Below are positions 6,515 to 63,245 of a DNA stretch of 64,000 nt, piece after piece; position 1 is the first letter of the stretch, and each line of letters starts with the position of its first letter. The DNA comes from an uncultured Candidatus Saccharibacteria bacterium (GTDB lineage Bacteria; Patescibacteriota; Minisyncoccia; UBA6257; 2-01-FULL-56-20): the NCBI GenBank assembly GCA_964365185.1, contig CAYIOP010000001.1, forward strand, positions 180,579-244,578. Reading direction: 5' to 3'. The notes beneath the pieces are model-generated. The model did not search any database, was not told the DNA's origin, and saw nothing but the letters and a program-made list of their open reading frames with translations. The position numbers and the translations under genes were made by a program.

Positions 6515-6546
6515 TTCCTCCGGAGGAGGATCCGCCTTTGGCGGAA
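6515..6546 (+). repeat. Dispersed triple-palindrome repeat, copy A (TCCTCCGGAGGAGGATCCGCCTTTGGCGGAA)
   Basis: One of 5 near-identical copies in this window (see findings). Confidence 0.7.
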
Positions 6547-9168: not shown

Positions 9169-9403
9169 CAGCCAACCAAGGATTAGCCAGGCCAGAAATA
9201 TTCCAGGTCAAACAATGAAAAAAGCGAAGATGAATCTTGGCAGCAATCCACAGAGATGGAATTTCTGTTGGTAAAAGGGAAGGTTTGAATAACGAAAGCA
9301 AATTTTCGCAACCCACCCGTCTTTCCTGAGTGTCATAAAACCTCCGATAAATTGTTAAGTTGCTTGGGGTAAAAATAGCAGTTTTAGCTAATAAAATCAA
9401 GGG

Positions 9404-21036: not shown

Positions 21037-21222
21037 TTACCAGGAAGATTTTCTGACCCCTGGAATTTCGCCCTTTGAAGCCATTTCCCTAAAACAAATA
21101 CGGCAAATCCCGAAAGTCCTCATATAGGCTCTTTTTCGACCACACCTAAAACATCGCCGCACAATGCGAGTGCTGAACTTAGGTTTCTTTTTACTTCTTG
21201 CAACAACTGAGGTTTTAGCCAT
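21037..21222 (-). CDS. rpsN: 30S ribosomal protein S14 type Z (zinc-binding)
   Basis: 61 aa with CFRCGRK...CRIC. Confidence 0.85.
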
Positions 21223-27321: not shown

Positions 27322-27355
27322 ATTCCGCCGGAGGCGGATCCGCTTTTGGCGGACA
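27322..27355 (+). repeat. Dispersed triple-palindrome repeat, copy B
   Basis: ATTCCGCCGGAGGCGGATCCGCTTTTGGCGGACA. Confidence 0.7.
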
Positions 27356-27977: not shown

Positions 27978-28077
27978 TGGGATTAGGTTTTAGGTTATAG
28001 ATGTTAAGTTATAGAGAAATGAATCTAAAAATAGAATTTAAAAGAACCAATCACTTCTAAAACCTGAAACCTATCTC

Positions 28078-29274
28078 CTATTTCAAGATTTTGGTCACCA
28101 CGCCAGCTCCAACTGTTTTACCTCCCTCTCTAATTGCAAATCGCTGCTTTTCCTCAAGAGCAACTGGAGCAATAAGTTTAACGACTAACTTGATAGTGTC
28201 TCCAGGCATCACCATTTCAGTGCCTTCGGGCAAAGTGACTTCTCCGGTGACATCAGTGGTGCGAATATAAAACTGGGGCTTATATCCTTTAAAGAAAGGA
28301 GTGTGACGCCCACCTTCTTCTTTGCTTAAAATGTAAACTTCGGCATCAAATTCAGTATGAGGATTGACGGCTCCAGGTTTAGTAATAACCTGACCTCTCT
28401 CTACATCTTCTTTCTTTAATCCCCTAAGCAGAATACCGACGTTGTCACCAGCTAAACCTTCGTCAAGAAGTTTATTGAACATTTCAATGCCCGTAACCAC
28501 GGTTTTTTGAGTAGGCCTTAAACCAACAATTTCAATTTCTTCATTGACTTTAACCCGACCTCTTTCAGCTCGGCCCGTAACTACCGTGCCTCTTCCCTCA
28601 ATCGAGAAAATATCTTCAATCGGCATCAAAAATGGCTTATCTAATTCTCGGACTGGTTCTGGAATGTATTCATCAAGAGCTTTGATAAGCTCCACGATTG
28701 GTTTGGCAGCCTCATCATCAGCAGACGTAGCTTCCAAGGCCTTAAGAGCTGAACCGCGAATAATCGGGGTGGTGTCGCCAGGAAATTCATACTTTTTCAA
28801 AAGCTCCCTAATTTCTGATTCGACAAGATCAATTAATTCTGGGTCATCAACCTGATCGATTTTATTAATAAAAACAACGATCGCCGGAACACCCACCTGT
28901 CTGGCTAAAAGAATGTGTTCCCTAGTTTGAGGCATAGGGCCGTCGGTCGCGGCAACCACCAGAATCGCGCCGTCCATCTGAGCAGCGCCAGTAATCATAT
29001 TTTTAATATAGTCAGCATGCCCCGGAGCATCAATGTGGGCGTAGTGTCTTTTTTCGGATTCATATTCCGAATGATGAAGAGCAATCGTAATTCCACGAGC
29101 TTTTTCTTCTGGGGCGTTATCAATTTGATCGACTGTTTCAACTCGGCTTTTAAAACCCTTAAGGTTTAAAACTTTGGTGATAGCGGCAGTTAAAGTGGTT
29201 TTGCCGTGGTCAACGTGACCAATAGTGCCGACATTGACGTGGGGTTTAGAACGCTCAAAAACTTCTTTAGCCAT
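28078..29274 (-). CDS. tuf: Elongation factor Tu
   Basis: GHVDHGKTT and the other G-motifs. 398 aa. Confidence 0.95.
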
Positions 29275-29281
29275 TTAATTA

Positions 29282-29316
29282 GGTGTTAGGTTATAGGTGT
29301 TAGGTTATAGGATGAT
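29282..29316. repeat. Tandem 14-mer AGGTGTTAGGTTAT x ~2.3
   Basis: AGGTGTTAGGTTATAGGTGTTAGGTTATAGG immediately upstream of the tuf start. Confidence 0.6.
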
Positions 29317-29414
29317 TTGTCGATTTTGCTAATTAATTTTCTAAAAACTATAAACTATTACCTGCAACCTGTTTTTCTTTTTCGACTATTTTTTTAATAA
29401 TTTTATAACAAGAT

Positions 29415-29442
29415 TAAGTATAGCTGGACTTAAATAATTGTC
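29415..29442 (-). promoter_or_regulatory. Candidate sigma70 promoter for tuf
   Basis: On the minus strand: TTGACA-16 nt-TATACT, ~140 nt upstream of the tuf ATG. Confidence 0.4.
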
Positions 29443-29460
29443 AACTAGCGATAGTATTTT

Positions 29461-29509
29461 TCTAAAAATACAGATAGAAACTACATTAAAATGTTGTTTC
29501 TATCTGTAT
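29461..29509 (-). terminator. Intrinsic terminator after the small Cys-rich ORF
   Basis: Perfect 14-bp stem ATACAGATAGAAAC/GTTTCTATCTGTAT with a 14-nt loop, followed on the minus strand by TTTTTAGA. Confidence 0.6.
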
Positions 29510-29526
29510 GCCGCAAAGAAAAATGT

Positions 29527-29691
29527 TAAGTGTATTCTTTGACGTATATAACACAATCATCTTTGCAGTTATCTCCACAGCAAGGAAGAGTGTAAGTTTC
29601 TCTTCTCCCTGCTCTTGAGATATGGATTGTTGTTGTCTTCGATGTTTTACGCCAACAACCTAAACATTTTTGAGAACGTTTTTTGGACATC
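29527..29691 (-). CDS. Small basic Cys-rich protein (54 aa), unknown function
   Basis: Hand translation gives MSKKRSQKCLGCWRKTSKTTTIHISRAGRRETYTLPCCGDNCKDDCVIYVKEYT*. A strong SD GGAGGT lies 5 nt upstream. It has its own terminator. It was not in the ORF track. Confidence 0.5.
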
Positions 29692-29816
29692 GAACCTCCA
29701 CTAATTTCCTAAATCAATTATTATCGAAGCAGAAATTTATTGCAAGTCCACTTTTATTTCTTTTTGCCTTCGACCCTTCAAATATTTCAGGGTCTATGGG
29801 AAAGTTTATTATTATT

Positions 29817-31922
29817 CTATTTGCGCTTCCCTTCGACAATTAATTGCTCAATGTTTTTAGGAACTGACTCATAATGGTCGAATTCCATAGTGAAAGAGCC
29901 GCGGCCTTGAGTCATGGAACGAAGTTCGGTGGCATAGCCAAACATCTCAGAGAGAGGCACTTGAGCGTCAATAACCTTAACAGTGGCCCGATCACCCAAA
30001 CTTTCAACTTTACCTCGGCGAGCGTTTAAGTTGCCGGTAACATCACCCAAAAATTGGGCTGGCACCAAAACTTGGGTTTTCATAATCGGCTCTAAAATAA
30101 CCGGCTTGGCTAATTTGGCGCCTTCTTGAAAAGCAATTGAGCCAGCAATTTTGAAAGCCGCTTCAGAAGAATCAACATCATGGAATGAGCCGTCAAAAAG
30201 AGTAACTTCGACATCAATCATTGGATAATGAGCTACCACGCCTTTATCAACAGCTTCTTTAACGCCCTTTTCAACCGCTGGGATAAATTCTTTGGGAATA
30301 TCACCGCCTTTAATCGCGTCAACAAAAACAAAACCTTCGCCTCTCAAAAGGGGTTTTAACGTAAGCCAAACATGGCCATATTGACCCCGACCGCCGGACT
30401 GACGAATATATTTGCCTTCGGCTTCGGATTCGGCGGTGATGGTTTCTTTATAAGCTACCTGCGGCCGGCCGACATTGGCCTCAACGCTAAATTCTCTTTT
30501 CATTCGATCAACAATGATTTCAAGGTGAAGCTCTCCCATACCAGAGATAATAGTCTCGCCGGTTTCAAGATCGCCGCTCACTCTAAAAGTCGGGTCTTCT
30601 TCCGCCAGACGCCTTAAAGCCATGCCCATTTTTTCTTGGTCGATTTTGGTCTTCGGATCAATCCGAATGCCAATAACCGGTTCGGGGAAAATTATGCGTT
30701 CCAGAATTAAAGGATTGTCCGGAGAACAAAGGGTGTCTCCAGTAGTGGTATTTTTGAGCCCAACAATCGCGGCGATTTCACCGGCGTAGACCTCGTCCAC
30801 TTCTTCTCTTTGGTTAGCATGCATTCTTACAATCCGACCGACTCTTTCTTGTTCGCCTTTATTGGCGTTTAAAATATAACTGCCTCGTTTAATAGTGCCG
30901 GAATAATTTCTAAAATAAGTTAGGGTCCCCACGTAAGGATCAGCGGCTACTTTAAAAGCCAAAGCAGATAACGGCTCTTCATCTTTAGGATAACGCAGGA
31001 CTTCTTCCGAGGTCTTAGGGTGAAGGCCTTTGGTTGCGGACAGGTCTAAAGGAGACGGCAGATAATCAATAACCGCATCTAGAACGAACTGGACGCCTTT
31101 ATTTTTAAGAGCTGAGCCGCAAAAAACCGGCACTAACTTATTTTCAATTGTAGCTTTCCGAAGAATTCTTTTTAAATCCTCGGTTTTAATTTCTTTGCCC
31201 TCAAGATATTCGCTCATTAACGCGTCGTCGTTTTCGACAATTTTTTCAATCAGGTGATGCCTAGCTTTTTTAACGGCGTCTTCAAGATTTTGAGGAATCG
31301 GAATTTCAACAATTTTTTCTCCGTGATCGCCTTGAAATTCAAAGGCCTGATTTTTCAGAAGATCGATGACGCCACTAAAATTAGCTTCACTGCCGATTGG
31401 AAGTTCAAGCGGCACAGCATTCGGAGTTAACCGCTCGTGAATAGAGAGCAAACTTTTTTCGAAATTCGCGCCCATCCGGTCGAGTTTATTGATAAAACAA
31501 ATTCTAGGCACCTTGTATTCATCGGCGTAGTGCCAGTTTGTTTCTGATTGCGGCTCAACGCCAGCCACGCCATCAAAAACAACCACCGCGCCATCTAGAA
31601 CTCGAAGAGAACGCTTAACTTCAACAGTAAAATCAATATGGCCGGGGGTATCAATAATATTTATTCGGTGTTCAAAATTTTTATCGCCTTTTTGATAAGT
31701 CGGTGTCCAAAAAGCGGTGGTAGCGGCTGAAGTAATAGTAATACCACGCTCGCGTTCCTGTTCCATCCAATCCATCACAGTGGTGCCTTCGTGAACTTCG
31801 CCAATTTTGTGAGAAATACCGGTATAAAAAAGGACCCTCTCAGTAACGGTGGTTTTGCCGGCATCAATGTGGGCAATAATGCCAATATTTCTTATTTTTT
31901 CGATGGGGTAGGTACGAGGCAC
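29817..31922 (-). CDS. fusA: Elongation factor G
   Basis: [10 protein letters not shown]-domain and EF-G domains II-V. 701 aa. Confidence 0.95.
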
Positions 31923-33011: not shown

Positions 33012-33045
33012 ATCCGCCGGAGGCGGATCCGCCTTTGGTGGAAGG
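33012..33045 (+). repeat. Dispersed triple-palindrome repeat, copy C
   Basis: ATCCGCCGGAGGCGGATCCGCCTTTGGTGGAAGG. Confidence 0.7.
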
Positions 33046-33399
33046 CGTAAGGTTGTAAAATGAAACAGAAGCCTGAATGTTAAAAAAATGAACTGCCCCG
33101 TGACAGTTCAAAAAGATAAGCTTTTTTACTGTTTAGGACATTGAAGATATGTTAGGAAAAATATGGATAAGTGTCAACTGGCGCTCGTATTTTCCTCTTG
33201 GAGAGCCGGCCTCGATTTTTTTCCAGCGAAAAATCGGGCCTGCATCTCGTCCCTATGGGTCCCGCCAGGGCGGGACACCAAGCCCATCTGGGACTCCGAT
33301 AGCCTCTCCAAAAGGAAAATATTCGCGCTGGTTTATTGATTATAAAAAATGCCGCGGTTCTATTTCTAGAATCACGGCAGAAAGTTATTTTTTTAAAAT

Positions 33400-33846
33400 T
33401 TACTGGCCAATATCCTCTACGAAAGCTTTGATGTGACCGTCAAAATCAAGCACCCACCCATCTCTAAATAGACCGTCCTCTGGTTTCGGATAAGCTAAGA
33501 TTGCATAAGCTCGATAACTCGTTTCATTTCCTTCGATGGAATATTGATACTTGGCGTCCGGCGGAATCAAGACGCCAATTTTAAGGAAAGCGCCAATGTT
33601 CTTTTTATCAGCGATTCTATCTTCGCTCTCAGGAATCCAGTAAGCGCCGGCAGGATTATTCTTCTTGAATTCTTCCTCAGCTAAGTATACTTGAGTTAGA
33701 ATTTTTTTGGCCTCCGCCTGGATTGTACGCTTCGGGTTATTAACAACCCTAGGAATTACCAGGGCCGCGAGAATACCAATAATGATTATAAAAATCAATA
33801 CATTGGAAACGTAAGGAGCCCTATGAATTTCGATTTCTGAAGACAC
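33400..33846 (-). CDS. Pilin/pseudopilin-like small secreted protein (GTG start)
   Basis: The N-terminal hydrophobic helix IFIIIIGILAALVIP is followed by a pilin-like segment (AEAKKILTQVYLAEEEF). An SD AGGAGG precedes the GTG. There is no canonical G|FTLIE cleavage motif. Confidence 0.4.
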   Translation of the reverse strand: MSSEIEIHRAPYVSNVLIFIIIIGILAALVIPRVVNNPKRTIQAEAKKILTQVYLAEEEFKKNNPAGAYWIPESEDRIADKKNIGAFLKIGVLIPPDAKYQYSIEGNETSYRAYAILAYPKPEDGLFRDGWVLDFDGHIKAFVEDIGQ

Positions 33847-42313: not shown

Positions 42314-42339
42314 AAGATTAAATTATAGGTGTTAGGTTT

Positions 42340-57742: not shown

Positions 57743-57856
57743 TTAGCCTTGTCTTTGTTTGTGCTTGGGATTGTTGCAAATAATGTAAATTCTCCTTTTC
57801 CTTCTTACGACCTTACAATTTTTACAGATTTTTTTAACTGATGTTCTTACTTTCAT
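57743..57856 (-). CDS. rpmJ: 50S ribosomal protein L36
   Basis: Hand translation gives [37 protein letters not shown]. It was missing from the ORF track. Confidence 0.8.
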
Positions 57857-63188: not shown

Positions 63189-63199
63189 TGAAGGGGGCA

Positions 63200-63245
63200 G
63201 GTTATAGGTTATAGGTTATAGGTTATAGGTTATAGGTTATAGGTT
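63200..63245. repeat. Heptanucleotide tandem repeat (GGTTATA) x 6-7
   Basis: AGGTTATAGGTTATAGGTTATAGGTTATAGGTTATAGGTTATAGGTTTC lies between the rnc stop and the smc start. Confidence 0.85.

What the first reader, a model, noticed from the sequence alone, without database searches (positions are those of the whole stretch)
29461..29816. Independent mini-cistron for a 54-aa basic Cys-rich peptide inserted between fusA and tuf
On the minus strand, between the fusA stop and the tuf promoter, lies an ORF not in the 6-frame track (29527..29691). Its product is MSKKRSQKCLGCWRKTSKTTTIHISRAGRRETYTLPCCGDNCKDDCVIYVKEYT. It has the strongest SD in the region (GGAGGT, 5 nt spacing), whereas most r-protein genes here have no SD. 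A near-palindromic TTGCAA...TAATAA promoter-like element lies upstream. A perfect 14-bp-stem terminator lies immediately downstream, followed by a textbook TTGACA-16-TATACT promoter for tuf. The peptide has a basic N-terminus and the Cys pattern C-x2-C ... CC-x3-C-x3-C. I cannot match it to L36, L33, L28, L31, L32 or S14. It could be an undescribed Zn-binding ribosome-associated protein, a metallothionein-like peptide or a RiPP-like precursor.
Basis: partly seen in the sequence, partly recalled or inferred. Interest (0 to 1): 0.6.

Follow-up and report, generated by a model that had tools for sequence, protein, structure and literature searches.

The report
Orphan mini-gene inserted between fusA and tuf
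A groundwater ultra-small bacterium carries about 370 extra bases between two translation-factor genes that look like a tiny gene for a 54-residue, cysteine-rich, basic peptide, but nothing like it exists in any relative or database, so it is at best a strain-specific orphan and not a new conserved ribosome component.

Summary
The anatomy is real. On the minus strand lie the fusA stop, about 126 nt with two hairpins, GGAGGT, ATG, a 54-codon ORF (29526..29690), a strong intrinsic terminator 16 nt later, and then a TTGACA-16-TATACT promoter for tuf.

The three closest relatives (EF-G 84% identical, same gene order) have only 150-187 nt between fusA and tuf. Their tuf promoter starts 8-45 nt after the fusA stop. 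The roughly 370 nt at 29445-29816 are therefore a lineage-specific insert.

The peptide has no true homologue in any protein library, family or structure library, nucleotide scan, or the fusA-linked loci fetched. The gap is identical in three assemblies of one aquifer population, so selection cannot be measured.

For coding:
- ORF plus SD arises in 0.19% of shuffles.
- The module is self-contained.
- A nearby SD-led 148-aa gene is also an orphan.

Against or neutral:
- The coding score is no better than non-coding frames, although genuine L36 scores the same.
- The insert is hairpin-rich, and one hairpin sequesters the SD.
- AlphaFold confidence is low.

Verdict: probably a translated orphan small-protein cistron (about 0.45). 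The main rival is a structured non-coding spacer with a chance ORF (about 0.35). It is not a conserved ribosomal protein, metallothionein or RiPP. Interest is low to moderate.

The parts
29817..31922 (-). fusA (EF-G, 701 aa), last gene of rpsL-rpsG-fusA; stop codon TAG at 29819-29817
   Evidence: ORF list. Pfam domains on the identical contig.
29445..29816 (-). Lineage-specific insert of about 370 nt between the fusA stop and the conserved tuf promoter
   Evidence: Relatives with 84% identical EF-G and the same synteny have gaps of 150, 163 and 187 nt, with the promoter 8-45 nt after the fusA stop. No DNA similarity to any relative's gap, to phages or to plasmids.
29772..29794 (-). Hairpin H1 (GACCCU...AGGGUC)
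   Evidence: dG -9.6 kcal/mol, z -3.2, 0 of 200 shuffles fold as well.
29691..29750 (-). Imperfect 60-nt hairpin H2; its 3' arm contains the SD
   Evidence: dG -17.2 kcal/mol, z -2.7, 4 of 200 shuffles fold as well. SD bases A59-U62 are paired.
29717..29745 (-). Weak sigma-70-like promoter candidate TTGCAA-17-AATAAT, inside H2
   Evidence: 9/12 consensus match; not more frequent than in shuffles. Inconclusive.
29694..29699 (-). Shine-Dalgarno GGAGGT, 3 nt before the ATG
   Evidence: Only three known genes in the window have a comparable SD: PgpA, adenylosuccinate lyase and a 148-aa orphan.
29526..29690 (-). 54-codon ORF: MSKKRSQKCLGCWRKTSKTTTIHISRAGRRETYTLPCCGDNCKDDCVIYVKEYT. Net charge about +7; Cys at 9, 12, 37, 38, 42 and 46.
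   Evidence: No homologue found. Coding score -0.026 bit/codon.
29571..29621 (-). Strong internal hairpin H5 inside the ORF (codons about 24-40), with no U-tract after it
   Evidence: dG -22.6 kcal/mol, z -4.6, 0 of 200 shuffles fold as well.
29464..29509 (-). Intrinsic terminator: 14+4 bp stem, 4-nt loop and a U-run, starting 16 nt after the ORF stop. It works on the minus strand only, because there is no T-run on the other side.
29417..29444 (-). tuf promoter TTGACA-16-TATACT
   Evidence: 11/12 match. The same TTGACA-16/17-TAnAAT element is seen in L082, L083, L084, L171, L173 and L175.
29275..29416 (-). tuf 5' leader, including the tandem 14-nt TAACCTAACACCTA repeat (29280-29307) just before the ATG in place of an SD
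28078..29274 (-). tuf (EF-Tu, 398 aa)

Best explanation
The organism is a Paceibacteria/'Liptonbacteria'-like bacterium of the candidate phyla radiation (CPR), from the Hainich aquifer. Its lineage acquired about 370 nt between the fusA stop and the conserved tuf promoter.

The insert is a self-contained mini-cistron. It is transcribed by read-through from rpsL-rpsG-fusA and possibly also from a weak internal promoter. A consensus SD and ATG drive translation of a 54-residue peptide that is soluble, strongly basic at its N-terminus and carries six cysteines. A strong intrinsic terminator 16 nt after the stop codon ends the transcript and uncouples the str operon from tuf, which has its own promoter.

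The peptide is an orphan accessory product and not a conserved ribosomal protein. Its most likely chemistry (inferred, not shown) is a metal- or disulfide-stabilised beta-hairpin mini-protein that binds nucleic acid or a partner protein. In read-through transcripts the SD sits in a 60-nt hairpin, so translation may be damped there and favoured on transcripts that start at the internal promoter.

Shown: the anatomy, the insertion, the absence of homologues and the signal statistics. Inferred: transcription, translation, metal binding and any function.
For: - SD GGAGGT 3 nt before the ATG of the longest ORF in the insert. ORF of 54 or more codons plus SD occurs in 0.19% of 20,000 shuffles.
- Strong SDs are real signals in this genome, but only on non-core genes: PgpA, adenylosuccinate lyase and a 148-aa orphan.
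- The terminator lies directly behind the ORF rather than behind fusA.
- The insert is absent from the three nearest relatives, whose tuf promoter abuts fusA.
- In 64 related Patescibacteria loci the same spacer ranges from about 100 nt to more than 3 kb. It often holds real small genes, such as a Phd/YefM-like protein and a bPH_2 protein, so it is a recurrent landing site for accessory genes.
- A second lineage-specific insert lies next to rpsL. It carries an SD-led 148-aa gene with a normal coding score (0.267) and no homologue outside this population. Orphan status is therefore typical here.
- The ORF's poor coding score equals that of the genuine L36 gene (-0.026 vs -0.018).
- L36 (37 aa) is also missing from the gene-call index, whereas L29 (63 aa) is present. 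'Not called' is therefore uninformative.
Against: - No true homologue in 5.8 billion clustered proteins.
- Only two spurious repeat-summed hits in 1.84 billion representatives read in full by HMMER.
- Nothing in Pfam, NCBIfam, PHROGs, PADLOC or PDB at E<=10.
- Nothing in metagenome or viral pattern scans, in the fusA-linked loci fetched, or in phage and plasmid six-frame searches.
- Gene callers skipped the ORF on both population contigs that span the spacer.
- The codon log-odds lies in the lowest 1.7% of real-gene 53-codon windows and is typical of stop-free non-coding frames.
- GC1/2/3 of 0.32/0.53/0.26 is unlike native genes at 0.49/0.37/0.38.
- The insert is unusually hairpin-rich: z -3.8 without the terminator, H5 at -22.6 kcal/mol inside the ORF, and the SD paired in H2.
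- AlphaFold2 gives pLDDT 56.6.
- There is no sequence variation in the population with which to test selection.
- With look-elsewhere correction, chance ORF plus SD is about 0.1.
Confidence: 0.45

Rival explanations
1. The insert is a non-coding, hairpin-rich spacer or fusA 3'UTR. Its real function is RNA-level: terminating and insulating the str operon, stabilising the mRNA 3' end, or acting as a small RNA. The 54-codon ORF and its SD-like hexamer are fortuitous. Any peptide made is translational noise.
For: - Four hairpins are each more stable than shuffles: H1 z -3.2, H2 z -2.7, H5 z -4.6, terminator z -8.
- The whole insert folds with z -6.1, and -3.8 without the terminator. Background 150-nt windows have mean z -0.35 and sd 1.2, with 4% at or below -2.7.
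- The GGAGGT forms the 3' arm of H2.
- The coding score is indistinguishable from non-coding frames.
- An ORF of 54 or more codons arises in 8.4% of shuffles.
- There are no homologues anywhere.
- One relative (L083) also has a long, ORF-free, structured fusA-tuf spacer.
Against: - A consensus SD at optimal spacing from an ATG that opens the longest ORF occurs in 0.19% of shuffles.
- No Rfam family matches at E<=1.
- Nearest relatives manage without any such spacer.
- No covariation data exist to support a conserved RNA structure.
Confidence: 0.35
2. It is a dual-function small RNA, analogous to Bacillus SR1/SR1P. That would be an independently transcribed, structured RNA of about 250 nt running from the internal promoter to the terminator. 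It would act by base-pairing and also encode a small six-cysteine peptide.
For: - It has its own promoter-like site, structured body and terminator.
- The Cys layout C-x2-C...CC-G-x2-C-x3-C resembles SR1P, which has C6, C9, C28, C29, C32 and C34 (PMC3526287).
- The local match IH...T...CCG is seen in BLASTP.
Against: - The pairwise E-value is 0.17, which is not significant.
- The conserved SR1P motifs MGTIVCQ, FEDEK and VTTLY are absent.
- SR1P is acidic, whereas this peptide is basic.
- The promoter matches only 9/12.
- No target or homologue is known.
Confidence: 0.08
3. It is a leader-peptide attenuator controlling read-through from fusA into tuf. Under this reading, the ribosome's position on a Cys-rich leader ORF decides whether the terminator forms.
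For: The ORF stop lies 16 nt before the terminator stem. Weak alternative pairings touch the base of the stem (I9, I10).
Against: - The competing pairings overlap only 3-4 nt of an 18-bp terminator and do not appear in the MFE or centroid fold.
- tuf has its own strong, conserved promoter after the terminator.
- At 54 codons the ORF is long for a leader peptide.
- Relatives have no such element.
Confidence: 0.03
4. This is the first reader's set of options: an undescribed conserved Zn-binding ribosome-associated protein, a metallothionein-like peptide, or a RiPP precursor.
For: The ORF sits in a translation gene cluster. The N-terminus is basic and there are six Cys.
Against: - The ORF is absent from every relative examined, including those with 84% identical EF-G.
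- No r-protein or metallothionein model matches at E<=10.
- L36 is already present in the window, and a stretch at 21085-21159 reads like zinc-type S14 (assignment by eye).
- Only one CxxC knuckle is present.
- There are no modification, transport or immunity genes within +/-5 kb.
Confidence: 0.04

Closest known systems
Small zinc-binding ribosomal proteins (bL36, bL33, bL31, bL32, bL28, zinc-type uS14)
   Same: Size (37-60 aa), strongly basic, Cys-rich, and encoded among translation genes. The coding statistics are as poor as those of this genome's own L36.
   Different: - No match to any Pfam or NCBIfam model at E<=10.
- Only one CxxC knuckle; the second half is CC-x3-C-x3-C.
- Not conserved in any relative.
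- It uses an SD, whereas r-protein genes here do not.
SR1/SR1P dual-function sRNA of Bacillus (PMC3526287)
   Same: A short stand-alone unit with a terminator and a structured RNA. The encoded peptide has six Cys arranged as CxxC ... CCG..C..C.
   Different: - BLASTP E=0.17.
- The family motifs MGTIVCQ, FEDEK and VTTLY are absent.
- Opposite net charge and an unrelated phylum.
- SR1P was shown not to need Zn.
Accessory genes occupying the fusA-tuf spacer in other Paceibacteria (Phd/YefM-like protein with a C-terminal [ED]DLP[FLIV] tail; bPH_2 membrane protein)
   Same: The same genomic slot between the fusA stop and the tuf promoter, on the same strand, and small size. This shows the spacer tolerates inserted cistrons.
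   Different: No sequence relationship. An HMM of the Phd-like family and BLAST of 182 relatives' gap ORFs against the six-frame translation of the window's gap gave nothing. Those proteins are acidic and conserved across many genomes, whereas this one is basic and unique.
Lineage-specific SD-led orphan gene next to rpsL in the same window (33400..33846, 148 aa)
   Same: - Absent from the three nearest relatives.
- Consensus SD.
- No Pfam match and no homologue outside this population.
   Different: It is long enough and has a normal coding score (0.267), so it is certainly a gene. The 54-aa ORF is not.

Membership tests
bL36 / other zinc-ribbon ribosomal proteins (bL33, bL31, bL32, bL28, uS14) | Match to the family profile (Pfam/NCBIfam) | tested here: not met
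   No family matched at E<=10 in Pfam-A or NCBIfam. No PDB chain matched at E<=10.
bL36 / other zinc-ribbon ribosomal proteins (bL33, bL31, bL32, bL28, uS14) | Two metal-binding knuckles (CxxC...CxxC, or CxxC...C-x4-H) | tested here: not met
   The sequence shows CLGC at 9-12 and then CCGDNCKDDC at 37-46. There is no second CxxC.
bL36 / other zinc-ribbon ribosomal proteins (bL33, bL31, bL32, bL28, uS14) | Conservation across related genomes | tested here: not met
   The ORF is absent from the fusA-linked loci fetched and from the relatives with 84% identical EF-G.
Zinc-ribbon fold in general | Confidently predicted beta-hairpin with knuckles; metal binding | tested here: inconclusive
   AlphaFold2 on the single sequence gave pLDDT 56.6, with only a hairpin at residues 19-36 reaching about 70. 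Metal binding cannot be tested with these tools.
SR1P (Bacillus dual-function sRNA peptide) | Conserved motifs MGTIVCQ, FEDEK and VTTLY (PMC3526287) | tested here: not met
   The motifs are absent. BLASTP gave 13.1 bits, E=0.17.
SR1P (Bacillus dual-function sRNA peptide) | Six Cys, CxxC at the N-terminus and CC..C..C at the C-terminus | tested here: inconclusive
   A similar pattern is present but with different spacing (x24 vs x18; x3/x3 vs x2/x1).
Bacterial metallothionein | Profile match; very high Cys/His content with few charged or aromatic residues | tested here: not met
   No Pfam hit. The peptide has 6 Cys in 54 residues, 12 Lys/Arg, 3 Tyr and 1 Trp.
RiPP precursor | Adjacent modification, transport or immunity genes | tested here: not met
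   The neighbours within +/-5 kb are S12, S7, EF-G, EF-Tu, S10, L3, L4, L23, L2, S19 and L22.
Rho-independent terminator | Stable stem-loop followed by a U-tract on the transcribed strand | tested here: met
   An 18-bp interrupted stem with dG -21 to -25 kcal/mol and z about -8, followed by UUUUU. The simple consensus scan missed it.
SD-dependent cistron | Anti-SD-complementary hexamer 3-9 nt upstream of a start codon | tested here: met
   GGAGGT-TCG-ATG. The spacing is comparable to the three confirmed SD genes in the window.
Sigma-70 promoter dedicated to the ORF | -35 and -10 hexamers with 16-18 nt spacing; transcript 5' end | tested here: inconclusive
   TTGCAA-17-AATAAT matches 9/12, and such sites are not enriched over shuffles. 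The transcription start cannot be tested with these tools.
Leader-peptide attenuator | Mutually exclusive anti-terminator and terminator pairings coupled to the ORF | tested here: not met
   There is no competing structure in the MFE or centroid fold. The alternative arms overlap only 3-4 nt of the stem.
Known RNA families (Rfam 15) | Covariance-model match | tested here: not met
   No match at E<=1 in 28000-31000. Only tRNAs were found at gathering threshold in the window and six relatives.

The most novel reading that the evidence does not exclude
The most novel reading is a newly born or recently acquired, population-specific mini-protein that is metal-stabilised, basic and carries six cysteines. 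It would be expressed from the tail of the str operon of a CPR bacterium and would associate physically with the translation apparatus (ribosome, EF-G or EF-Tu). That would make it a strain-level add-on to a minimal ribosome.
Probability: 0.08. Interest if true: 0.55.

Novelty: new member of a known kind. Interest (0 to 1): 0.25.

Why it matters
If the peptide is real, it shows that even the most conserved operon junction of a streamlined CPR genome can accept and express an orphan micro-gene. It would also give a concrete candidate for de novo or very recent small-protein birth in an uncultivated lineage. It would illustrate how many such cistrons standard gene calling and protein databases miss, since L36 in the same contig is also missing from the index. 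If the ORF is not real, the case is a useful caution: an SD plus ORF plus terminator in an AT-rich, hairpin-rich spacer can arise without coding. Either way it does not change what is known about ribosome composition.

Tried and rejected
- Family and structure searches with the peptide (Pfam, NCBIfam, PHROGs, PADLOC, PDB) found nothing at E<=10.
- Word-indexed search of 5.8 billion proteins found nothing, not even the peptide itself. The exact-sequence gene index also had nothing.
- Full HMMER scan of 1.84 billion representatives gave two hits. Both are artefacts of summing weak matches over 11 and 5 internal repeats.
- Back-translated pattern scans of metagenome and viral contigs found nothing. 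tblastn and blastn against phages and plasmids found nothing significant.
- Synteny test: 160 fusA loci from GTDB genomes and metagenomes, plus the three relatives with 84% identical EF-G, show no homologue of the peptide and no DNA similarity in the spacer.
- Pseudogene-remnant idea: an HMM of the relatives' Phd-like spacer protein and BLAST of 182 spacer ORFs against the window's six-frame gap found nothing.
- Population genetics: three assemblies of the same aquifer population are 100% identical across the gap, so no dN/dS is possible.
- Rfam gave no hit.
- Duplication origin: similarity of the insert's 5' part to the fusA 3' end (p about 0.1) and to the tuf promoter and leader (p about 0.4) is not significant.
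- Mobile-element reading: no terminal inverted repeats or target duplications, and no second copy in the window.
- AlphaFold2 confidence was too low to justify a fold search.
- Literature searches found no description of a fusA-tuf mini-cistron or of new small ribosomal proteins in Patescibacteria.
- SR1P resemblance was rejected as membership.
- My first shuffle-folding script timed out. I repeated the analysis with the folding tool.

Full report
**What is in the sequence.**
Reading the minus strand from fusA towards tuf:
- fusA ends with TAG at 29819-29817.
- H1 is a 6-bp hairpin at 29794-29772 (dG -9.6 kcal/mol, z -3.2).
- H2 is an imperfect 60-nt hairpin at 29750-29691 (dG -17.2, z -2.7). 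It contains a weak promoter-like TTGCAA-17-AATAAT (9/12). Its 3' arm carries GGAGGT (29699-29694).
- After 3 nt comes the ATG at 29690.
- The ORF runs 54 codons to TAA at 29528-29526.
- Inside the ORF is a very stable hairpin, H5, at 29621-29571 (dG -22.6, z -4.6).
- Sixteen nt after the stop comes a 14+4-bp hairpin followed by a U-run at 29509-29464 (dG -21 to -25, z about -8). It has a T-run on this strand only.
- The TTGACA-16-TATACT promoter follows at 29444-29417 (11/12).
- A 140-nt leader then precedes tuf.

**Source and relatives.**
The identical EF-Tu protein occurs on a 56.9-kb contig from Hainich aquifer well H43, 0.1 um fraction. Other assemblies of the same population are 99.4-100% identical to the window. 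The three that span the spacer are identical across all 542 nt of it. Selection therefore cannot be measured.

EF-G searches show nothing between 100% and 84% identity. The nearest named relatives are 'Candidatus Liptonbacteria' and Paceibacterota.

**It is an insertion.**
Three relatives with 84% identical EF-G share the gene order M50 peptidase-rpsL-rpsG-fusA-tuf-rpsJ. Their fusA-tuf gaps are only 150, 163 and 187 nt. In each, the conserved TTGACA-16/17-TATAAT tuf promoter starts 8-45 nt after the fusA stop. The window's 29445-29816 is therefore about 370 nt of lineage-specific DNA.

Across 64 Patescibacteria loci with both genes, the spacer is highly variable:
- 25 loci have 250 nt or less.
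- 9 loci have 251-450 nt.
- 14 loci have 451-750 nt.
- 16 loci have more than 750 nt.

The spacer frequently holds genuine small genes. The slot is thus a recurrent landing site for accessory cistrons.

**No homologue anywhere.**
- Pfam, NCBIfam, PHROGs, PADLOC and PDB are all empty at E<=10.
- The 5.8-billion-protein index is empty.
- The full HMMER scan of 1.84 billion representatives gave two hits. Both are repeat-summed artefacts.
- Pattern scans of metagenomes and viral contigs found none.
- tblastn over all fetched loci found none.
- Phage and plasmid six-frame searches found none.
- The insert's DNA matches nothing.
- The insert is not a relic of the proteins that occupy the slot in relatives.

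**How much does 'orphan' and 'not called' count?**
Less than it seems. The genuine 37-aa L36 gene of the same contig is also absent from the gene-call index, while the 63-aa L29 gene is present.

A second lineage-specific insert lies next to rpsL at 33149-33846 and is absent in the three nearest relatives. It carries an SD-led 148-aa gene with a normal coding score (0.267). That gene has no Pfam domain and no homologue outside this population. SD-led orphans are therefore a real feature of this genome.

**Intrinsic coding evidence.**
- ORF length alone is weak evidence. An ORF of this length appears in 8.4% of dinucleotide shuffles of the insert.
- ORF plus an SD-like 5-mer occurs in 0.19% of shuffles.
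- Over the window's roughly 6.6 kb of intergenic DNA on two strands, that gives about a 0.1 chance of one such accident.
- Strong SDs are rare here (59 of 66 genes have none) and mark non-core genes: PgpA, adenylosuccinate lyase and the 148-aa orphan.
- The codon log-odds of the ORF (-0.026 bit/codon) is in the lowest 1.7% of real-gene windows and typical of stop-free non-coding frames.
- The deficit is almost entirely due to amino-acid composition. The synonymous-only score is uninformative, with 16% of real windows scoring lower.
- The real L36 gene scores the same.
- GC content (36%) lies between coding (41%) and intergenic (34%) DNA.

Overall, composition is neutral.

**RNA-level evidence.**
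The insert folds far better than shuffles: z -6.1 overall, and -3.8 without the terminator. Background 150-nt windows have mean z -0.35 and sd 1.2. Each named hairpin is individually significant. The SD is base-paired in H2. No Rfam family matches, and no covariation test is possible. This keeps a non-coding or dual-function reading alive.

**Peptide properties.**
- Net charge is about +7. The N-terminal 30 residues are very basic and the tail is acidic.
- There is no hydrophobic segment.
- Cys residues lie at 9, 12, 37, 38, 42 and 46.
- AlphaFold2 without an alignment predicts only a beta-hairpin at 19-36 (pLDDT about 70 there, 56.6 overall).
- There is one CxxC knuckle and not two, so a canonical zinc ribbon is not evident.
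- The Cys layout resembles Bacillus SR1P (PMC3526287). However, the family motifs are absent and BLASTP gives E=0.17.

**Conclusion.**
The best-supported reading (about 0.45) is a lineage-specific, SD-dependent orphan mini-cistron. It would be transcribed at the tail of the str operon and closed by its own terminator, which also insulates tuf. The product would be a small, basic, probably metal- or disulfide-stabilised peptide of unknown role.

Nearly as likely (about 0.35) is that the insert is a hairpin-rich non-coding spacer with a chance ORF. The finder's central hope, an undescribed conserved ribosome-associated protein, is not supported.

Noticed in passing
Related loci L014, L016, L017, L019, L020, L030, L034, L104, L108, L110, L121 (fusA-tuf spacer); variants in L015, L021, L023; 37-aa remnant in L106: Many Paceibacteria carry a conserved 80-135-aa ORF directly upstream of tuf. 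It has a Phd/YefM-antitoxin-like N-terminus (PF02604, E 2e-4 to 0.05, below cutoff), an acidic low-complexity linker and an invariant C-terminal [ED]DLP[FLIV]. From memory, that tail resembles the protein-recruiting tail of SSB (DDDIPF). No toxin partner lies next to it. It is absent from the window.
   Followed up: partly
window 29280-29307 (before tuf), 27982-28014 (before rpsJ), 63199-63243, 42323-42338; also the tuf leaders of L082 and L173: Translation and r-protein genes lack an SD. Instead they carry CCTAA/ACCTAA-rich leaders, including tandem 14-nt TAACCTAACACCTA repeats, immediately upstream of the start codon. The motif is shared with relatives. It may be a non-SD initiation or enhancer element.
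   Followed up: partly
window 6522-6545, 27330-27353, 33019-33042 (given on the + strand; the element reads on the - strand): There are three copies of a GC-rich hairpin repeat (TCCGCCAAAGGCGGATCCGCCTCC on the - strand). Two of them lie just upstream of rplC and rpsL.
   Followed up: no
window 29375-29444; L082, L083, L084, L171, L173, L175 upstream of tuf: The tuf promoter TTGACA-16/17-TAnAAT is conserved across relatives. An (A/G)GTCGA(A/G) motif lies 30-45 nt downstream of the -10 element in all of them. This heptamer is common in the window (30 copies), so its significance is unclear.
   Followed up: partly
window 33149-33846: A second lineage-specific insert of about 900 nt lies between the M50 peptidase gene and rpsL. 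It holds an SD-led 148-aa orphan with an N-terminal hydrophobic helix (normal coding score, no Pfam domain, no homologue outside this population). It also holds an overlapping 95-aa opposite-strand ORF with a poor coding score that gene callers nevertheless called.
   Followed up: partly
window 9208-9336 (-): This is another intergenic small ORF (42 aa, hydrophobic C-terminus). It has the same GGAGGT SD (GGAGGTTTTATG), no family match and a poor coding score.
   Followed up: partly
L083 5102-5816: A relative with 82% identical EF-G has a 714-nt fusA-tuf spacer with 45% GC, no convincing ORF and no Rfam hit. It folds with z -3.1. It may be an unknown structured RNA.
   Followed up: partly
window 57743-57856 (-): The genuine L36 gene (37 aa) of this genome is absent from the large gene-call index, while L29 (63 aa) is present. 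Proteins of about 55 aa or less from such contigs are therefore systematically under-represented in the protein libraries used here.
   Followed up: yes
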